A DNA stretch of 64,000 nt, from the NCBI RefSeq assembly GCF_009914755.1, contig NC_060928.1; one strand, 5' to 3'. This DNA is from the human T2T-CHM13v2.0 reference genome, Homo sapiens. The position numbers were made by a program, and so were the translations under genes. Below are positions 3,030 to 61,624 of this stretch, one piece after another (positions within the stretch are counted from its first letter, which is position 1; each line of letters begins with the position of its first letter). The notes under the pieces were generated by a model. The model saw only the letters and a program-made list of their open reading frames with translations, was not told where the DNA came from and searched no databases.

Positions 3030-3426
3030 GTAATATATATGAATCAATACACTTTCATTAGTCTGTGGACATTACCAAGTACTTATTCTGTTTGTATTCT
3101 AAAACAAATGGTGCTACTTTCAAAAATATTCTTAACTAGTAAGTATAATCTTAAATTGTCTTTCTTATTTACATTAGATATTTTTGCCTGCACACTTATA
3201 GCAAGAAAATTTTAGTAACACATATCACTATCCCATTTATTTAATTGACTTTAAGATTGCCATCTTGAATTTTGAAAGTGATTTTCTTCTGATCAAGAAA
3301 CCTCTCATTCACTAACAACTTATTTACTATAAAAAACTCTTAAGGATCCATTAGATTATGGGACATAATTTTATTCTGTACACTATGAAAGTCCCCATCA
3401 ACAAACTTTGGAAGGAAAAAGACTCT

Positions 3427-4279: not shown

Positions 4280-5470
4280 CTCATTCAATAAATATTTGTA
4301 AGCATTTAATGCTTGCCAGATATTGTTCCAGGCACAAAGTAAAATCTTCACTTCCACAAAGCTTATACTCTGAAGTGAGAACGTAGAAGACTGGGGAGAG
4401 GCAAAAATCATTTTATATAATTTGTAAGTGTGATATATAATTCTATGTAAGTATAGTGAATGTTATGAAGAAAAATAAAGCTCGGAAAGGAGATGGAAAA
4501 TACTGTTTTTGATAGTGAGCAGGAAAGGCTCTTTTAAGAAGATGAGAGTTGAGCAGAGAGCTAAAGCCACATAGATACCTGGAACAAGAGCTGTCCAAAT
4601 AGGAGAACTTTGTGGTAGATGAATGTAGAACTTACTTTGCGAGTGCTCTTTTCTCTGTGAAAGAAGCAACAGAATTATCAGCTGAAAGGGTGTAAGAGGG
4701 TTAGAGGTTTTGCAAAATAGTCTAGGAGAGTAAGATGTTGAATTTACTACTGGTATGTAATAGGATTGTGAGGACCCATCTTGGGCTGTGAGTCGAACTT
4801 AGAATGAAACTAATAAGCATAACTGTACCTCTTTCCTCTAGCTATGTTCAGTGCTTGGTAGGAAGTCGGATTTAACCACAGTTGGCTACAAGGAACAGAG
4901 GAGGAGCAAGAGAATTTAGGATGTATACAAGGGAGTGACTCATTTAAGCTACAAGAGCACAAAATGGGTGATGGATAGTGATGGGTAGAGATGGGTAGCG
5001 GGCTTAGTTGTTTGGAGGTCCCATTGAGGTTAAAAGCTATTAAGAGTATAGGTGTCAGAAAGAATGAGTTGGAAAGATAAAATGTAGTGGTTAGGATATG
5101 AAAAGCTTGGAATTGAGATTTGGGAGAAGTTTAGATAATGACAAGACTGGGGGAATGAGTGGTTGAGATGTTATTAAAGGTAACTAGAGGTAGGGAGGTG
5201 AGAACTTAGAGCCCAGGATTTCAAATGGATCATCTATTTGATTATTAAAATTATCCCCAAAAAATGACAGGAATAATGCTGGGGACACGGAGACTGTAAA
5301 TGATTGCAATAAGGAGGAGTGGCAAGGGGATATGCTGAGGACCTGAGGTAGGCAAGGAGGAAGAAGAATCTGGATGCCAACAGAGGAGTAGAGGGATGCC
5401 TGCCTGGGGTTTAGGATCAAACACAGCCGTCCTTTGACAGGTTTGGAGGAAGGTAATATCCTCAAGACAG
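4280..5470. mobile_element. Degenerate L2-like fragments
   Basis: CATTCAATAAATATTTG..AGCA L2 end motif followed by purine-rich L2-like body; boundaries vague. Confidence 0.5.
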
Positions 5471-6118
5471 CCAGGTTTCAGTTAGCGTGTGTGGAGACTG
5501 ACATAAACCAAAATATAGGCACGACGAGAGTAATCCTGATGGGAGGTGGATAATCCATTCTCATTGCCTCCTTATGGGACAAGTCTCTTTGGCCATTTGC
5601 TTTGTGAGGCAGGGAGTGTTGGGTGAGAGGAAGGGGTATGCTTGTCAGGAATTCTGTGAGCTGCTTTTTCAACTAACTAAAAAAAGGTAGTGGTTCTTAG
5701 TGTTATTGGTAGGGATGGGATCAGAATTTCCTGGGCGAGCTTTTTGGATACCTCAATTCATATTCACTACCTGATTAGGGGCTTGGCCAGAGATACATTA
5801 AAATGCATACATTAATGTATTAAAAGTATTCATACATTAATATGTATATATGTGTGTGGCAAATACTATTTGATAGCTATTTGGGGATTTGACTGTTACA
5901 TATTCAACTTGTGAGGCTAGGAAAGGCACATATTAGCAAAGTGTTATATTAAAGAAACCGTGAGCCCTCCTCTTCTAAGTATCTTCTCACTAAAATACTT
6001 TTGAAGACATAGGAAAAGAAGAAAACTCACAACAAAGTTGAAAATAACATTGCAGACATCATCTAGATAGAACTAAAAATTACTGAAAGAAGACAATTTA
6101 TGAAAAAAATAAACACTC

Positions 6119-6412: not shown

Positions 6413-8624
6413 TACAAATTTTTAAAGAAAAAAAATAACACTCAAGCCCTGTTTGGCACATGAAACCTGAAAAACAAAAATAGAAGATACTACATAATTC
6501 ATTCATCTTTTGCCTCTGAATTCAGAGACAGGATCTGTATCAACCAGCAAATTGGTATCCTCCTCCTGCCTGCATTCTTATAATAACCATAAGAAGTAAG
6601 TACGTAATATAAAACAAGTGGGCAGGAAGTGTGTATGTGTACTTGGCTTAAGTGGAGAAGGTAGCCATAATCAGGGGACACAGAAGCTATTAATGTATTC
6701 ATTGCCTTCAGATTTGGCATGGGCAGATCCAAAAATTAATTATTTTTTGTTTCCTTTAGTAAACAATGCACAGTTCTGTGGATTTTTACTTTTGGACCAA
6801 TCAGCATTACTTACAAGTACTTACTAGTAATGTTATTACTTACTAATAAGTGAATTACAAAGGACCACTAAAATTTGTTTCCACAAATGAAAATCAGTGT
6901 TTTATTAGAGTTTGCTTAGGATTCTACTTATAAGATGCCTGGTCCCTGTACAAGGTTTGTAATTTTGCAAGAATGCACAAAAGTGTATATACAGATACTG
7001 TCACACAGCAGGTCAGACAACTGACAGAAACTATCCTACGGTCAGTACTCAAGCATTTTCTTATGAATGTATTATCTTGTTGGGAGGTGTTCATGGTTTT
7101 TCTGCTATTTTTGCATTTCAGATATGTATTATTTTAGCTTGATAGCCATTGAGATTGCTATAGATTATTTGATTTGTATATAATGATGTATGTATGCATA
7201 TTTCACTATATTTTTCTATTTTTCTATAACTGGGTTTTAAATATTTTTGGTAGAAAAATAATTATACTTTCATTGCTAAAAATAAATATGCATAACCTAC
7301 CCCTCTATATTGCTTATAACATTTTGATGATGTAGCCAGTGAATATGTGCTAATTTAAATAACTTTTATATAAAATTAAGCCAACTGCCGTATTATAACT
7401 GGTTTCTTTTTAACTTAATAGGATATTGTTTTATAATATTAAATCATATGTTTAAGCTCATTCTCTTTAAAAATAAACAATAAGCAATTTCTATATATTC
7501 CTCTCAAGTCTTTATTACTTAGGAATTTGCTTTAGAGCAGGGATTGTATTTTGGATTTTCTTTATACTTCTTATCCCACTTCACATATCCCCAGGTACTC
7601 TTCCCAAGACAGAATACATGGCAGAGACACATTTAAATTTAATTGAACAACTGCAAAAGCTTATTAGCCTTTCTTATAGTGGAGTCATTTCACAGTGACC
7701 CTTGGGAAATCTGTAAAACATTATACCAGTTAGGAGGACTTTTTCCCATTCTTAATGAAAGTTTTTATGGATCTTTTTCCCCTGTAGTCAATTTCTTTCA
7801 AATTCTGCTTCTTTGGGGCTTAGGTCTAATGACTTGCATAGTAACAATAGGAAACGCCTATTACATGCACTTCCTATGGAACCAGAAAAATTCTAATAGA
7901 GTGGAAGATACTGTGTCTCTAGCCTGTCTCCTATTAGTTATCAAAAGCTGGTAAGTAAGTAATTATGTGCAGAGTTAGGAATAATAGAGGTAAATGGAGA
8001 AATGGATGAATAAGATGTTTAACAAGAAAGGTCAAAACTTAAAGCTGAGTTATTTAATAACTAAGACCCTGAGTACTGTGTTCACAAGCAAAAAGTGGTC
8101 TTTCAAAAGGTTTTTACCAAAAATGTAGTGAACCTAAATCGTCTTCATAGCATTTATGGCACTCTTTTGGGTCATAATCTGGGAAGGAGTGAGGACAAAA
8201 TTGGGGTGGAGAATGAGTAGGAACCAGAAGAATAACTTTGAAAGGAAAAGAAGGTAAATGTACATCATTACAGGGGCTGTCCTTTGTTCACATCCAGGCT
8301 TTGCAAATGCTGCTCCACTGCTTGGAAAACACTGTCTTTCATTCCCTTCCTGGCTTTCTTAGCACTTACTCCTCCTTATCCTTCAGAATTCAGCCTAGGG
8401 ATCATTACCTCCTGGCAGCTTCTCCTGATGGCTGTCTCATCTGGGTTAAATACTCCTTCCTGTGTGTATCCATAACACATTCTCATCTCTACTGTAGCCC
8501 CCATCAGACTGTGTTACAATTGACATTCTCCCTCAAACATGGGAACCAGGTTCTCTTCGTCATAGTGCCCCCTATACCTGACATATAGTAGGCATTTAGT
8601 AAATGTTTGTTGAACCAATTTTTC

Positions 8625-56508: not shown

Positions 56509-56601
56509 TCAATAATCCCTGGAGAGAAAGCCTCAAGAAGACAGAGTAGCTCAGCCTGAAGTGAGGATGGAAGGGAGAGGCCTCCGGAAAAATTCTCTTT
56601 C

Positions 56602-58545
56602 TTTTTTTTTTTTTAAGGAGAGATGTATGGTCTTTATTAAGGTTGCGTGATCCAAACCAGATCCCAAATAATATCAAATACCAAAAAGAGAGAGGCTCAG
56701 CCAGAGAGAAGACTCACCAGGGAAGAACAGGCAAGCCTTGGAAGCAGAGAGCTCAAAGGGCTCTAGTGGGTCCTGCACACCAGTTCCAAGAATTGCCAAT
56801 CCCTTCCAATAGTGTTCTTTTTCAGGTTTCATTTCTGACACCATTTATTCCAACCGAAATAACAAACATTTGGAGAGGAGGTGGTGTAAATTATTCAACT
56901 CGGAAAATATAAATGCAAACATACTAAATAAATTCATTGGGAAATTAGTCCAGTTGATATATGTGGTCATGAATATAAATGAAGACCATGCCTCATGGTT
57001 GTTGGTTTTGTCCCAGCCATGTTCCCTTATTCTGTAGGCATGGAACAGGGAGACGGTTGCCTTCATCTCATACATGTTTGCAGAAAGAAAGTGGGCCAAG
57101 GGAGTGAGGTAGTGCAGGGGAGAGATGATAATTAACCACGGAATCTGCACTAGGTAAAGAAACATGCAAGAGCATGTCAGGGGTGGTGGCTGTAAAAAAA
57201 TGATAGCGTCAATAAACTGGAAGACCTTATCATATCTGAAGAAATATTGGGGTTATTGAAAAGGTGAACTGAAAGAAGAAAGTAATCAAAGAATGGAAAA
57301 TTAGAAAAAGCAATTTGAGCAATAGTACAATTATTGGTGATGATGAGGTCTAGAGCATCATTGTCCAATGATTATTTAAATTTAAATTAAATAAAATAAA
57401 AAATTCAACTCCTCAGTTGCACTAGGCACATTTCAGGTGCAACACAACTATATGTGGCTAGTGGCTACTATATTGGACAGCATAGAGAGAGATTTCCATC
57501 ATCACAGAAGTTCCATAGAATAGCATTGTTTTGGTATGACTGTGGGAGTGAATAGCTGAGGAGAAGAGCAGAAAAGGTTTATTTGAGGTTAGAATGGAGG
57601 AGATTGTAGGGTCATCTTGACCAATGATAAAATCACCAATAATTGAGATAAGAGTAGGGGTGGGGGTAATATCAGAGGGAGCCCTGTTTGTCACCTGGCC
57701 CTTGGGGAGACGAGTTCTAGTGAGGAAATTGTAGAGAAAAGATGAACTTCTGTAAACTTCTGTTTTCCACTAGTCCTTAGGGTCACCACCTAATCATTAG
57801 CATGCCTAGCCCCAGCCCCACCTACCAGTAAGGCCAGCCTCTTATCCTTAACCTGGGGCTGCACTACATTGCTCCCAGGAGAATCAGCCAAATATTGCCT
57901 TTCCATCTAGGTGCTTGCCAAAGAGGAAACTGAGGCATCCCAAACCCCAGCCGACCTTGATTCTAGGTTGACAGAGCAGGGCCCAATAGTCCATCCATAT
58001 GTGCAGAGGTGCCCAGAATCTTCAGGAAGATGGAGCCCAACTGCCTCCCAGATCCCCCGGTGAGAAGAAAATAAGGCTGGGGATGGGAACTGGGATTTCT
58101 GGCTCTGTCTTATATCAGAGCAGACTGGGGCTTCCTATGGCCATTGTCAGTCCAAAACAGGGTCCTTGGACACAGGGGGCAAACCTCACTGAAATTCTTT
58201 CTCAGGGAGAAGAGGAGGCAGCAAGGTCCAAGTCTCAAGAATCCCATTAGCTGGGGGAGCCCATGAGACACACCAGACCAGGTTAGACCTTTAATAGGGA
58301 CAGTAGACACAGTGCCCTTCTTGCCAGCCCTTAGGAGTTGATGATCTCAATGTGGAACTGCAGGTGCCATCCACAGTCCCTTCTCATTATCATCAGCATG
58401 GCAAAGCAGGGAGGACCATGACGGTGCATCCCCATATCACTCTCTAGTGTCTGGTGAGATTTAGCACTTCCTCTCTTCCCTTGACTCGGTGCCTCACAAA
58501 GCCTTAGGAAAAGACACAGATGTCTTTATTTAGGTCTTCTTAAAC
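56602..58545 (-). mobile_element. SVA-mediated 3' transduced segment with its own poly(A) tail
   Basis: T13 at 56602-56614, AATAAA on - at 56638-56633, and bounded by the same TSD as the SVA 5' end. Confidence 0.88.
57354..57530. mobile_element. MER3/MER33-like hAT element inside the transduced segment
   Basis: GCACTAGGCACATTTCAGGTGC...ATGTGGCTAGTGGCTACTATATTGGACAGCA. Confidence 0.75.
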
Positions 58546-60610
58546 TTTTTTTTTTTTTTTAATTTATTTTTTATTGATCATTCTTGGGTGTTTCTCACAG
58601 AGGGGGATTTGGCAGGGTCATAGGACAATAGTGGAGGGAAGGTCAGCAGATAAACAAGTGAACAAAGGTCTCTGGTTTTCCTAGGCAGAGGACCCTGCGG
58701 CCTTCCGCAGTGTTTGTGTCCCTGGGTACTTGAGATTAGGGAGTGGTGACGACTCTTAACAAGCATGCTGCCTTCAAGCGTCTGTTTAACAAAGCACATC
58801 TTGCACCGCCCTTAATCCATTTAACCCTGAGTGGACACAGCACATGTTTCAGAGAGCACAGGGTTGGGGGTAAGGTCACAGATCAACAGGATCCCAAGGC
58901 AGAAGAATTTTTCTTAGTACAGAACAAAATGAAAAGTCTCCCATGTCTACTTCTTTCTACACAGACACGGCAACCATCCGATTTCTCAATCTTTTCCCCA
59001 CCTTTCCCCCCTTTCTATTCCACAAAGCTGCGATTGTCATCCTGGCCCGTTCTCAATGAGCTGTTGGGCACACCTCCCAGACAGGGTGGTGGCCGGGCAG
59101 AGGGGCTCCTCACTTCCCAGTAGGGGCGGCCGGGCAGAGGTGCCCCTCACCTCCCAGACGGGGCGGCTGGCCGGGCGGGGGGCTGACTCCCCCACCTCCC
59201 TCCCGGACGGGGCGGCTGGCCGGGCGGGGGGCTGACCCCCCCACCTCCCTCCCGGACGGGGCGGCTGGCCGGGCGGGGGGCTGACCCCCCCACCTCCCTC
59301 CCGGACGGGGCGGCTGGCCGGGCGGGGGGCTGACCCCCCCACCTCCCTCCCGGACGGGGCGGCTGGCCGGGCGGGGGGCTGACCCCCCCACCTCCCTCCC
59401 GGACGGGGTGGCTGGCCGGGCGGGGGGCTGACCCCCCCACCTCCCTCCCGGACGGGGCGGCTGGCCGGGCGGGGGGCTGACCCCCCCACCTCCCTCCCGG
59501 ACGGGGCGGCTGGCCGGGCAGAGGGGCTCCTCACTTCCCAGTAGGGGCGGCCGGGCAGAGGCGCCCCTCACCTCCCGGATGGGGCAGCTGGCCGGGCGGG
59601 GGGCTGACTCCCCCACCTCCCTCCCAGACCGGGCGGCTGGCCGGGCGGGGGGCTGACCCCCCACCTCCCTCCTGGACGGGGCGGCTGGCCGGGTGGGGGG
59701 CTGACCCCCCCACCTCCCTCCTGGACGGGGTGGCTGCCGGGCGGAGAGGCTCCTCACTTCTCAGACGGGGCGGCTGCTGGGCAGAGGGGCTCCTCACTTC
59801 TCAGACGGGGCGGTTGCCAGGCAGAGGATCTCCTCACTTCTCAGACGGGGTGGCTGGGCAGAGACGCTCCTCACCTCCCAGACGGGGTCGCGGCCGGGCA
59901 GAGGCGCTCCTCACATCCCAGACAGGGCGGCGGGGCGGAGGCGCTCCCCACATCTCAGACGATGGGCGGCCGGGCAGAGACGCTCTTCACTTCCTAGATG
60001 GGATGGCGGCCGGGAAGAGGTGCTCCTCACTTCCTAGATGGGATGGCGGCCGGACGGAGACGCTCCTCACTTCCCAGACTGGGCAGCCAGGCAGAGGGGC
60101 TCCTCACATCCCAGACGATGGGCGGCCAGGCAGAGACGCTCCTCACTTCCCAGACGGGGTGGCGGCTGGGCAGAGGATGCAATCTCGGCACTTTGGGAGG
60201 CCAAGGCAGGCGGCTGGGAGGTGGAGGTTGTAGCGAGCCGAGATCATGCCACTGCACTCCAGCCGGGGCACCATTGAGCACTGAGTGAACGAGACTCCGT
60301 CTGCAATCCCGGCACCTTGGGAGGCCGAGGCTGGCGGATCACTCGCGGTTAGGAGCTGAAGACCGGCCAGGCCAACACAGCGAAACCCCGTCTCCACCAA
60401 AAAAAATACGAAAACCAGTCAGGCGTGGCAGCGCGTGCCTGCAATCGCAGGCACTCGGCAGGCTGAGGCAGGAGAATCAGGCAGGGAGGTTGCAGTGAGC
60501 CGAGATGGCAGCAGTACAGTCCAGCTTCGGCTGGGCATGAGAGGGAGACCGTGGAAACAGAGGGAGAGGGAGACCGTGGGGAAACGGGAGACGGAGAGGG
60601 AGAGGGAGAG
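58546..60610 (-). mobile_element. Full-length SVA (SVA_D-like)
   Basis: Poly(T), SINE-R (~58575-59060), GC-rich VNTR (~59070-60180), Alu-like domain (~60180-60540) and (CCCTCT)n-like hexamer (~60540-60610). Confidence 0.97.
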
Positions 60611-61624
60611 CTGGATTTCAAAGCTTCCCAAATTCTCTTTCAATTATGATCTGGGCCCTTGATTTTTCTTATTGCTGGTGAGGCCTGGTTACAAAGGATT
60701 TGTCCGAGAACATCAAGCTGAGACTTCTTATTGAGTTCGTTTCCTTTTAAAATACATATATGCAGTTGTTCTTTCCATAGTCAAATGGTTAATTTTATTT
60801 TCTCTAAATTGGTAACAAAGAAATAATTGTGAAAATATATCCATAGACCAATATATATTCAGCTGTTCTGAATACAGTAAATTAGCTATTCTCTATCAGC
60901 CAAATGTTGTCAGAATAAATAGGCTAGGCATTAATCATTTATGAAGGATGCTTAAATTTTGACTTTTGGATGAAAAAGTGTTGAATGTCCTTGACATTTA
61001 ATATATTTTTAAAAACCTTTCACTTCATCTGGGGAAAAAAGGTGAAAGTAGAGAAGGTCTTCTCAACAATGGATATTTAATTAAGCTCTGTCGTCCAAGA
61101 ACAGAATTGAATATCGTGGGTTACAGTGTTAACCTTCAACAGGTTAAGTTGAAGCCTTACTTAATCAAGTGTTGAGCTTTGCTTAGGTTTGAATATCAAA
61201 TCAGGTGAAACTTGTTTTGCATAGTTTCCATTTAAAGCCCCATCCCACCCCTCCCAGCTTTGTTTGATCCTCCTCTTCAGCCTCCTTTGGCTGTGTGTCT
61301 TATGCGATTGAAAACATCTTGGGAGTTATGAAGACCACCGAAACGACAGGAAATAACTTTGCAACCTTTACTCTTTTTTCTGAATCTAAATTTTTTTCAG
61401 CTCCAAAGTATGTGGTTTTAGAGTATCTGAGGCCTTTATACTTCAGTAGTGTTGAGGGAAGTCTGTCTAGAAGGTCCTTGGAGGTAGCTCTGCTTTTTGA
61501 ATGTTTTTTGCTGGATCCTGTGAGTGATCTTGAGGATTCAGAATCTTGGTTTTGTAAGTTCCCTTGGGTAGTCTGGCCCTAGAGAAAACTAGGCTGTGCT
61601 GGCCAAACGTATACCTTTTATTAA

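What the first reader, a model, noticed from the sequence alone, without database searches (positions are those of the whole stretch)
56590..60641. SVA with a hidden ~1.9 kb 3' transduction and 19 extra 5' bases: one ~4 kb insertion in MCUB intron 1
Seen: no TSD lies next to the SVA's own tail, but AAATTCTCTTTC occurs at 56590-56601 (followed by T13) and again at 60630-60641. On the - strand the order is TSD, GGGAAGCTTTGAAATCCAG, hexamer, SVA body, poly(A), 1.93 kb non-SVA DNA, AATAAA (56638-56633), poly(A), TSD. The reconstructed empty site reads TTTC/AA. Known: this fits the L1 endonuclease TTTT/AA consensus, and SVAs read through their weak poly(A) signal and duplicate flanking DNA. Inference: 56615-58545 (L2/MER3-like pieces, an ERV leader-like piece and ~850 bp of apparently unique DNA) was imported from the source SVA locus and tags its lineage. 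A repeat annotation would show only the SVA.
Basis: partly seen in the sequence, partly recalled or inferred. Interest (0 to 1): 0.8.

Follow-up and report, generated by a model that had tools for sequence, protein, structure and literature searches.

The report
SVA insertion carrying spliced host-gene DNA
A 4 kb jumping-gene (SVA) insertion in an MCUB intron brought along about 1.9 kb of DNA copied from its parent locus on chromosome 3, which is a well-known kind of event that here lets the element's ancestry be traced across four chromosomes.

Summary
Window 56590-60641 is one L1-mediated insertion on the minus strand. It has an exact 12-bp TSD, an A13 tail and a TTTC/AA nick site.

The 1,931 bp between the SVA's own A15 tail and the terminal tail is a 3' transduction. 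Its only close match in this genome lies directly downstream of another SVA at chr3:51.89 Mb (12 substitutions in 1,928 aligned bases).

The transduced RNA was processed:
- A 1,131-nt GT-AG intron is removed.
- A further 2,303 nt, holding IQ-motif coding exons, is missing at a blunt, non-canonical junction.
- The copy ends at the chr3 gene's own AATAAA site.

The "19 extra 5' bases" are 2 untemplated G plus 17 nt. The 17 nt are a remnant of a 5' transduction shared by 9 SVA copies. Nested TSDs give the order: chr6:36.76 Mb (no SVA in this assembly), then chr17 (upstream exon spliced in), then chr3, then chr4.

One conflict stays open. The chr4 SINE-R carries a rare 3-site haplotype (16 copies against 919) that the chr3 and chr17 copies lack.

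This is a known kind of event, confirmed and refined. Orthologous empty sites could not be tested.

The parts
60630..60641 (-). 5' target-site duplication (GAAAGAGAATTT on the element strand)
   Evidence: Exact 12-mer, found only twice in the window. It abuts the element's 5' end.
60628..60629 (-). Two untemplated G at the 5' junction
   Evidence: The chr3, chr17 and chr6 flanks read ..GGAT|GAAGC where chr4 reads TSD-GG|GAAGC. Untemplated G at full-length SVA 5' ends is attributed to the cap in PMC3287187 (passages read).
60611..60627 (-). 17-nt remnant of an older 5' transduction (GAAGCTTTGAAATCCAG), originally flank of chr6:36.76 Mb
   Evidence: The 24-mer spanning it and the hexamer start has 9 exact genome hits and 0 in the reversed control. 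8 of the 9 carry 138 to about 440 nt more of the same upstream sequence. An SVA-less chr6 locus carries the flank.
58561..60610 (-). SVA body. Approximate module bounds: hexamer region 60610 to about 60540, Alu-like about 60539-60178, VNTR about 60177-59062, SINE-R about 59061-58561 including AATAAA.
   Evidence: Aligns module by module with 8 other SVA copies. Coordinates come from anchor motifs. The hub's repeat mask covers 58523-60360.
59030..59047 (-). Rare 3-site SINE-R haplotype (GGCCAGGATGACAATCGC), absent from the chr3 and chr17 ancestors
   Evidence: 16 exact genome hits against 919 for the common form. Alignment.
58546..58560 (-). Internal A15 tail inherited from the chr3 source SVA
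   Evidence: The end AATAAAAAATAAATT plus A15 is shared only by the chr4 and chr3_51.89 copies among the 8 copies whose ends were listed (chr3_46.5 lacked the motif there). The chr3_46.5 end printed differs as well.
58512..58545 (-). 3' transduction block a. 34 nt of chr3 flank, beginning with 15 nt of the chr3 SVA's 21-nt TSD and ending at a GT donor.
   Evidence: 34 of 34 identical to L009 3202-3235. Three nt (GAA) next to the tail are absent. In chr3 the next bases are GTAGGT.
58367..58511 (-). 3' transduction block b. 145 nt matching chr3 51,893,867-51,894,011, preceded in chr3 by TCTTTTTCTAG.
   Evidence: 144 of 145 identical. Acceptor sequence seen.
56615..58366 (-). 3' transduction block c. 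1,752 nt matching chr3 51,896,315-51,898,066. It holds the last 11 codons plus stop of an IQ-motif ORF (58366-58331), then the 3' UTR up to AATAAA (56638-56633).
   Evidence: 1,738 matches, 11 mismatches and 6 gap columns. ORF. Pfam IQ PF00612, E 7.5e-13, on the chr3 exon. In chr3 the match stops where the chr4 tail begins, 18 nt after AATAAA.
56602..56614 (-). Terminal poly(A) tail (A13) of the inserted RNA
   Evidence: It is not templated in chr3, which reads GAATGATAAAAAG at that point.
56590..56601 (-). 3' target-site duplication

Best explanation
Window 56602-60629 (minus strand) is a single L1-mediated (target-primed reverse transcription) insertion of a chimeric RNA transcribed from the SVA at chr3:51,890,9xx-51,892,7xx.

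How the RNA was made and inserted:
- Transcription started, or the cDNA ended, 17 nt upstream of that SVA's hexamer.
- It ran through the SVA's own AATAAA and A15 tail into the flank.
- It was spliced from a GT donor 37 nt past the tail to an AG acceptor 1.13 kb downstream.
- It continued into a same-strand IQ-motif gene. By position on 3p21 this is IQCF-family, a name I recall and did not test.
- It was cleaved and polyadenylated at that gene's own site.
- L1 endonuclease nicked chr4 at TCTTTC/AATTAT. The cDNA was primed on the poly(A), and a 12-bp TSD resulted.

A second internal loss of 2,303 nt is not splicing. I infer a reverse-transcriptase jump or a later deletion.

The chr3 parent is itself a copy of an SVA in a chr17 intron. 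It was made from an RNA that began at an upstream exon (TOM1L2 exon 1, name recalled) spliced to an acceptor 106 nt before that SVA's TSD. The chr17 copy in turn carries about 210 nt of flank from chr6:36.76 Mb, where this assembly has no SVA.

Shown: the anatomy, the paralogy, the nested TSDs and the GT-AG junction. Inferred: the read-through transcript, the start site, the cause of junction 2, and the timing.
For: 1. TSD, tails and nick site.

2. A genome search with window 56615-58545 gave only two high-identity places, both on chr3: 99% over query 1-1752 and 97% over 1753-1907. The remaining 37 of 40 scored hits are 72-84% identical and limited to query positions 1-268.

3. In chr3 these blocks lie downstream of an SVA in the same orientation. 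The chr4 sequence after A15 is the chr3 SVA's 3' TSD and flank. The chr3 SVA has its own 21-nt TSD, AAAGAAGTTTAAGAAGACCTA, at L009 964-984 and 3196-3216. This makes chr3 the donor and chr4 the copy.

4. Junction 1 is exact: GTGTCT|GTAGGT ... TTTTTCTAG|TTTCC, with no positional ambiguity.

5. The chr3 match ends 18 nt after AATAAA, where chr4 has the untemplated A13.

6. The 5' 17 nt equal the chr3 upstream flank. The 24-mer across that junction is found in 9 copies.

7. Nesting of the older events:
- The chr3 5' transduction contains the chr17 copy's 5' TSD (AAAGAATTTCC) and 106 nt of chr17 intron at 100% identity. It also contains an exon mapping 58.6 kb upstream on chr17.
- chr17 has TTTTGCAG immediately before the joined sequence.
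- chr6:36,759,546-761 carries the oldest flank at 99% identity, followed by non-SVA DNA.

8. Both chr4 flanks are single-copy.

9. All of these hallmarks are listed for SVA in PMC3287187 (passages read). Concatenated transductions, transductions up to 4 kb and sources missing from assemblies are described in PMC12593883 (passages read).
Against: 1. At the start of SINE-R the chr4 copy has a rare linked 3-site haplotype: 16 genome copies against 919. Its inferred parent (chr3) and grandparent (chr17) have the common form. No derived variant in the SVA body is shared only by chr4 and chr3. Only the tail is.

2. Junction 2 (window 58367|58366) has no GT-AG on either strand and no microhomology. 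One step of the history is therefore unexplained.

3. The chr3 SVA has 8 to 13 differences from the other 7 aligned copies in 450 columns of SINE-R. That is more than the 0.62% seen in the flank.

4. No outgroup or second human genome was available, so an empty chr4 site was not seen.
Confidence: 0.93

Rival explanations
1. Mosaic cDNA. The insertion was made in one TPRT event, but reverse transcriptase changed templates. It copied the 3' part (IQ-gene UTR, flank, A15 and the end of SINE-R) from the chr3 read-through RNA. It then switched within SINE-R to a different SVA RNA of the same 5'-transduction group that carried the rare haplotype. The 2.3-kb skip would be an intramolecular jump in the same event.
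For: The rare SINE-R haplotype is shared with chr3_46.5, chr12, chr14 and chrX of the same group but not with chr3_51.89 or chr17. chr4 also shares an Alu-like variant (ATGCCCAGCC), a VNTR variant and the best VNTR alignment score with chr12. Junction 2 is blunt and non-canonical. ORF2p template switching that produced SVA chimeras is proposed in PMC12593883 (passage read).
Against: Only one haplotype block (3 sites within 16 nt) and two single sites support it. The Alu-like region of chr4 is otherwise identical in its informative sites to chr3_51.89 and chr17. Short-patch exchange between SVA copies is seen independently in this lineage and could give the same pattern after insertion.
Confidence: 0.2
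2. Plain descent from chr3, followed by short-tract gene conversion. The conversion either put the rare haplotype into chr4 or restored the common form at chr3 and chr17. The 2.3-kb loss is a later deletion in chr4 or an allele of chr3 that has since been lost.
For: The chr3 SVA carries a 3-nt cluster near the SINE-R end (..CTCTCCAAG..). It is absent from the other 8 group copies whose SINE-R ends were read and present in 47 SVA copies genome-wide. Of 12 such copies fetched, the 6 that could be cut out for alignment are an older type, and chr3 does not share most of their many other differences. This shows patchy exchange in this very element.
Against: A random donor would carry the rare haplotype only about 1.7% of the time (16 of 935). 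Restoring the common form needs independent events at chr3 and chr17.
Confidence: 0.55
3. Two independent insertions. A processed copy of the chr3 gene transcript inserted first, and an SVA later landed exactly at its 5' end. Alternatively, a DNA-level duplication moved the segment from chr3 to chr4.
For: None beyond the fact that the non-SVA part has its own AATAAA and tail.
Against: One TSD pair brackets the whole unit, and none brackets either part alone. The chr3 SVA's tail, TSD remnant and flank are contiguous with the SVA in chr4. Intron loss, an untemplated poly(A) at a cleavage site and a TTTC/AA nick site argue against DNA duplication.
Confidence: 0.02

Closest known systems
SVA 3' transduction (read-through of the SINE-R poly(A) signal). 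Described by Xing et al. 2006, which I recall but could not read here. Summarised in PMC9917352 and PMC3287187.
   Same: An SVA followed by unique DNA from the source locus, a second poly(A) signal and tail, and TSDs around the whole unit. The source was identified by its own TSD inside the transduced DNA, which is the criterion stated in the Methods of PMC12593883.
   Different: The transduced RNA was processed: one canonical intron was removed and a further 2.3 kb was lost. It ends at a host gene's native poly(A) site. At 1.93 kb it is long against the mean of 347 bp reported for polymorphic 3' transductions, but within the reported range of up to 4 kb (PMC12593883).
5'-transducing SVA groups and exon trapping (Damert et al. 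2009 and Hancks et al. 2009; both recalled, neither held here). The SVA_F1/MAST2 example is described in PMC3287187 and PMC6139936.
   Same: Nine copies share upstream flank from one master locus. One generation (chr17 to chr3) added an upstream host exon by splicing into an acceptor ahead of the SVA.
   Different: The group is small (9 copies in this assembly). The exon is spliced to intron sequence upstream of the SVA rather than into the Alu-like region, so the element keeps its hexamer. The window copy retains only 17 nt of the 5' transduction.
Concatenated (serial) transductions and template-switch chimeras in polymorphic SVAs (PMC12593883)
   Same: Nested TSDs and flanks record successive source loci. 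One source (chr6) has no SVA in the assembly, as that paper reports for some transduction origins.
   Different: Here the chain is read from fixed copies in a single assembly. A template switch is only one possible reading of the SINE-R conflict.

Membership tests
L1-mediated (TPRT) non-LTR insertion | Target-site duplication of 4-20 bp flanking the whole insert | tested here: met
   Exact 12-bp repeat with only two copies in 64 kb. The feature list is from PMC3287187.
L1-mediated (TPRT) non-LTR insertion | 3' poly(A) tail not templated at the source, and an insertion site resembling TTTT/AA | tested here: met
   A13 in chr4 where chr3 reads GAATGAT. The reconstructed nick site is TCTTTC/AATTAT.
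L1-mediated (TPRT) non-LTR insertion | Empty orthologous or allelic site with one TSD copy | not testable with these tools
   Only one human assembly is held. Both flanks are single-copy in it.
SVA retrotransposon | Composite order: CCCTCT hexamer, Alu-like, VNTR, SINE-R, AATAAA, poly(A) | tested here: met
   Module-by-module alignment with 8 other copies. No Dfam or RepeatMasker model was available, so the subfamily (D, E or F) was not assigned.
SVA 3' transduction | The extra 3' DNA maps to a unique locus immediately downstream of another SVA in the same orientation, and the source's TSD lies within the transduced DNA | tested here: met
   15 nt of the 21-nt chr3 TSD directly follow the A15 tail.
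SVA 3' transduction | The transduced DNA ends at a downstream poly(A) signal followed by a new tail | tested here: met
   AATAAA at 56638-56633, with the tail 18 nt later. The same signal is present in chr3.
Spliced transduction (processed chimeric transcript) | Missing source DNA bounded by GT...AG on the transcribed strand | tested here: met
   Junction 1: the intron L009 3236-4366 starts GTAGGT and ends TTTTTCTAG.
Spliced transduction (processed chimeric transcript) | The same test for the second missing segment (L009 4512-6814) | tested here: not met
   The segment starts AC and ends CT. There is no GT-AG on either strand, no permissible shift and no microhomology. Its ends can pair at -32.2 kcal/mol, but 21 of 300 random placements in the same locus do as well.
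5'-transduction group | Non-SVA bases between the TSD and the hexamer that match the source's upstream flank and are shared by sibling copies | tested here: met
   17 nt match the chr3, chr17 and chr6 flanks. There are 9 exact copies of the 24-mer junction and 0 in the control.

The most novel reading that the evidence does not exclude
The chr4 element is a mosaic written in one error-prone TPRT event. Reverse transcriptase copied the chr3 SVA/IQ-gene read-through RNA and skipped 2.3 kb within it. Inside SINE-R it then switched to a second SVA RNA from the then-active sub-lineage carrying the rare haplotype. On this reading the transduction tag and the SVA body report different parents, so transduction-based source tracing can mis-assign SVA lineages.
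Probability: 0.2. Interest if true: 0.45.

Novelty: new member of a known kind. Interest (0 to 1): 0.3.

Why it matters
The finding confirms that a repeat mask covering only the SVA hides about 1.9 kb of imported DNA in MCUB intron 1, antisense to MCUB.

The copy is a clean worked example of serial transduction: chr6 to chr17 to chr3 to chr4. It shows exon capture at one step and a spliced, gene-terminated 3' transduction at the next. The chr6 master locus has no SVA in this assembly.

The imported DNA holds only the last 11 codons and the 3' UTR of the IQ-motif gene, so no gene was duplicated.

The disagreement between the transduction tag and the SINE-R haplotype is a practical caution for source-element tracing. 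Otherwise the biology is established, and the locus may already be a row in published transduction catalogues that I could not read.

Tried and rejected
- **TSD next to the SVA's own tail.** None was found. There is only a chance 9-mer about 430 nt upstream.
- **Junction 2 as splicing.** Rejected on both strands.
- **RNA stem across the 2.3-kb lost segment as a cause of a reverse-transcriptase jump.** The ends pair at -32.2 kcal/mol, beaten by 1 of 500 mononucleotide shuffles. But 21 of 300 random real-sequence placements score as well, so the result is inconclusive.
- **SVA-body phylogeny to confirm chr3 parentage.** There are too few informative sites: 13 in SINE-R and 10 in the Alu-like region. 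VNTR alignments were not decisive.
- **Whole-SINE-R gene conversion of the chr3 copy from the older 'CCAAG' type.** Rejected. In the alignment of 6 of the 12 fetched copies (the other 6 failed my motif cut), chr3 shares with that type only the 3-nt cluster and one further single site.
- **Empty-site reconstruction from paralogs.** Both flanks are single-copy.
- **Literature.** Searches for SVA with TOM1L2, IQCF, or MCUB/CCDC109B found nothing relevant. Damert 2009, Hancks 2009 and Xing 2006 are not held. The only supplement of PMC10681720 is an unreadable PDF. Those catalogues may list this locus.
Full report
**1. Observation**

The 12-mer AAATTCTCTTTC occurs exactly twice in the window, at 56590-56601 and 60630-60641. 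The first copy is followed by T13. Read on the minus strand, the order is:
- TSD 60641-60630
- GG 60629-60628
- GAAGCTTTGAAATCCAG 60627-60611
- SVA 60610-58561, made of hexamer, Alu-like, VNTR and SINE-R with AATAAA
- A15 58560-58546
- 1,931 nt of non-SVA DNA 58545-56615
- AATAAA 56638-56633
- A13 56614-56602
- TSD 56601-56590

No direct repeat brackets the SVA alone. The only shared word is a 9-mer about 430 nt away. The plus-strand nick site is TCTTTC/AATTAT.

**2. Source of the 1.93 kb**

The window's genome is held, so I searched it with 56615-58545. Apart from the window itself, there are two high-identity places, both on chr3:
- 51,896,315-51,898,066, 99% over query 1-1752
- 51,893,855-51,894,011, 97% over query 1753-1907

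The other 37 of 40 scored hits are 72-84% identical and confined to query 1-268. The last ~250 nt of the block therefore belong to a dispersed repeat.

I fetched chr3:51,889,501-51,899,400 as L009 and compared it with the insertion by BLAST. An SVA in the same orientation lies directly upstream of the matching blocks.

That chr3 SVA has its own 21-nt TSD, AAAGAAGTTTAAGAAGACCTA, at L009 964-984 and 3196-3216. In chr4 the A15 tail is followed by GTTTAAGAAGACCTA..., which is the chr3 TSD and flank. The unusual end AATAAAAAATAAATT plus A15 is shared only by these two copies among the nine group copies.

chr3 keeps the intervening DNA and continues past the poly(A) site. chr4 has an untemplated A13 and a TSD. 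The direction is therefore chr3 to chr4.

Over the three blocks there are 1,916 matches, 12 substitutions (3 in CpG context) and 9 gap columns, which is 0.62% substitution divergence. On recalled calibrations (human-chimpanzee about 1.2%, about 6-7 My), this is roughly half the human-chimpanzee distance. A human-lineage insertion is likely but not shown.

**3. The transduced RNA was processed**

| Block | Window coordinates | Length | chr3 match (L009) |
|---|---|---|---|
| a | 58545-58512 | 34 nt | 3202-3235 |
| b | 58511-58367 | 145 nt | 4367-4511 |
| c | 58366-56615 | 1,752 nt | 6815-8566 |

Block a ends where chr3 continues GTAGGT. Block b is preceded in chr3 by TCTTTTTCTAG. The 1,131 nt between them is an exact GT-AG intron with no positional ambiguity.

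Between blocks b and c, 2,303 nt of chr3 are absent (L009 4512-6814). This segment starts AC and ends CT. It has no GT-AG on either strand and no microhomology, so it is not splicing. Its ends can base-pair (-32.2 kcal/mol; 1 of 500 shuffles as good), but 21 of 300 random placements in the same locus do as well. A stem-guided reverse-transcriptase jump is not supported beyond chance. The cause remains open: a reverse-transcriptase jump, a later deletion, or a lost chr3 allele.

The lost segment holds an open reading frame with two IQ motifs. Pfam PF00612 matches the chr3 exon at E 7.5e-13. Block c begins inside that exon. It keeps the last 11 codons and the stop codon, then the 3' UTR, and stops 18 nt after the gene's AATAAA.

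The SVA read-through was therefore terminated by a host gene's native poly(A) site. I recall IQCF-family genes at 3p21 but did not establish the gene's name. No intact coding sequence was moved.

**4. The 19 extra 5' bases**

The chr3 flank reads ..GGAT|GAAGCTTTGAAATCCAG|C-hexamer. chr4 reads TSD|GG|GAAGCTTTGAAATCCAG|C-hexamer. So there are 17 templated nt plus 2 untemplated G. Such G residues at full-length SVA 5' ends are attributed to the cap (PMC3287187, passages read).

The 24-mer across the junction has 9 exact genome copies and 0 in the reversed control. The copies are on chr2, chr3:46.5 Mb, chr3:51.89 Mb, chr4 (this window), chr6:74.8 Mb, chr12, chr14, chr17 and chrX. Eight of them share 138 to about 440 nt more of the same upstream sequence.

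**5. Lineage from nested TSDs**

- The chr17 copy has a 13-nt TSD (AAAAGAATTTCCA) and about 210 nt of 5' transduction.
- That 210 nt matches chr6:36,759,546-761 at 99%. There it is followed by non-SVA DNA and not by a GT donor. A master SVA once sat at that site, and this assembly carries no SVA there. Missing sources of this kind are reported in PMC12593883.
- The chr3 copy's 439-nt 5' transduction has three parts: (a) a 112-nt exon mapping to chr17:17,918,931-17,919,049, 58.6 kb upstream of the chr17 SVA on the same strand, with a weaker paralog on chr22; (b) 106 nt of chr17 intron at 100% identity, preceded in chr17 by TTTTGCAG; (c) the chr17 copy's TSD and its 5' transduction.
- The exon encodes MEFLLGNPFSTPVGQC.., which I recall as TOM1L2 exon 1. 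I did not inspect the donor site.

The order is therefore chr6, then chr17, then chr3, then chr4.

**6. Unresolved conflict in the SVA body**

At the SINE-R start, chr4 has GGCCAGGATGACAATCGC (window 59047-59030). This has 16 exact genome copies. The common form GGCCATGATGACAATGGC has 919.

Within the group, the rare form is in chr3_46.5, chr4, chr12, chr14 and chrX. The common form is in chr3_51.89, chr17, chr2 and chr6_74.8. chr4 thus differs from its parent and grandparent at three linked sites. No body variant is shared only by chr4 and chr3.

The chr3 copy also carries a 3-nt cluster near the SINE-R end that none of the other 8 group copies has. It occurs in 47 SVA copies genome-wide. Of 12 such copies fetched, the 6 that could be aligned belong to an older type, and chr3 does not share most of their many other differences.

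Short-patch exchange between SVA copies therefore occurs in this lineage. Either gene conversion or a template switch during reverse transcription could explain the chr4 haplotype. A template switch is proposed for other SVA chimeras in PMC12593883. I favour conversion (about 0.55) over a template switch (about 0.2). Neither was tested.

**7. Comparison with what is known, and verdict**

TSDs, poly(A) tails, the TTTT/AA-like site, 5' and 3' transductions and untemplated G are listed hallmarks of SVA mobilisation by L1 (PMC3287187). Frequent 5' and 3' transductions are reported in PMC10681720. Concatenated transductions, lengths up to 4 kb and source confirmation by the source TSD are reported in PMC12593883.

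This locus meets every tested membership feature except GT-AG at the second junction. The empty-site test could not be run: only one assembly is held, and both flanks are single-copy.

My searches found no paper naming this locus. The classic reference-genome catalogues could not be read and may list it.

The event is a new, well-documented member of a known kind, of modest interest.

Noticed in passing
L029 (chr6:36,758,046-36,761,261); match at chr6:36,759,546-36,759,761, minus strand: This is the locus of origin of the group's oldest 5' transduction (99% over 216 nt). It has no SVA in this assembly. The flank runs ..GAAATCCAG straight into AGAGGAAG. It is the predicted site of a lost or polymorphic master SVA.
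   Followed up: partly
L025/L027/L048 (chr17:17.86 Mb) and L047 (chr17:17,918,931-17,919,049): The chr17 SVA lies in an intron. An exon 58.6 kb upstream was spliced to an acceptor (TTTTGCAG) 106 nt before the SVA's TSD. This gave the chr3 copy's 439-nt 5' transduction. The gene name TOM1L2 is recalled from the peptide MEFLLGNPFSTPVGQC and was not tested.
   Followed up: partly
L009 about 3140-3150 (chr3:51,892,641-670): The chr3 SVA has ..CTCTCCAAG.. where the other 8 group copies have ..CT[CG]TGTGAG.. The 30-mer with this cluster occurs in 47 SVA copies. In the 6 that could be aligned, those copies are otherwise of a different, older type, which suggests short-patch sequence exchange.
   Followed up: partly
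window 56615-56868: The last ~250 nt of the transduced block, including the AATAAA that was used, belong to a dispersed repeat family. 37 of 40 scored genome hits are 72-84% identical, on both strands. The chr3 gene's poly(A) signal therefore lies in an old repeat. The family was not named, because no repeat library was available.
   Followed up: no
L009 about 5617-5915 (chr3 segment absent from chr4): A 5'-truncated Alu with an A-rich tail, flanked by the direct repeat AAAGAATGAAAGCC. It sits inside the 2.3-kb segment that the chr4 copy lacks.
   Followed up: no
chr14 (L020) and chr6:74.8 Mb (L023) group members: No TSD was found next to their SVA tails with the same word search that found TSDs for chr3, chr17, chrX and chr2. 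They may carry 3' transductions or later insertions of their own.
   Followed up: no
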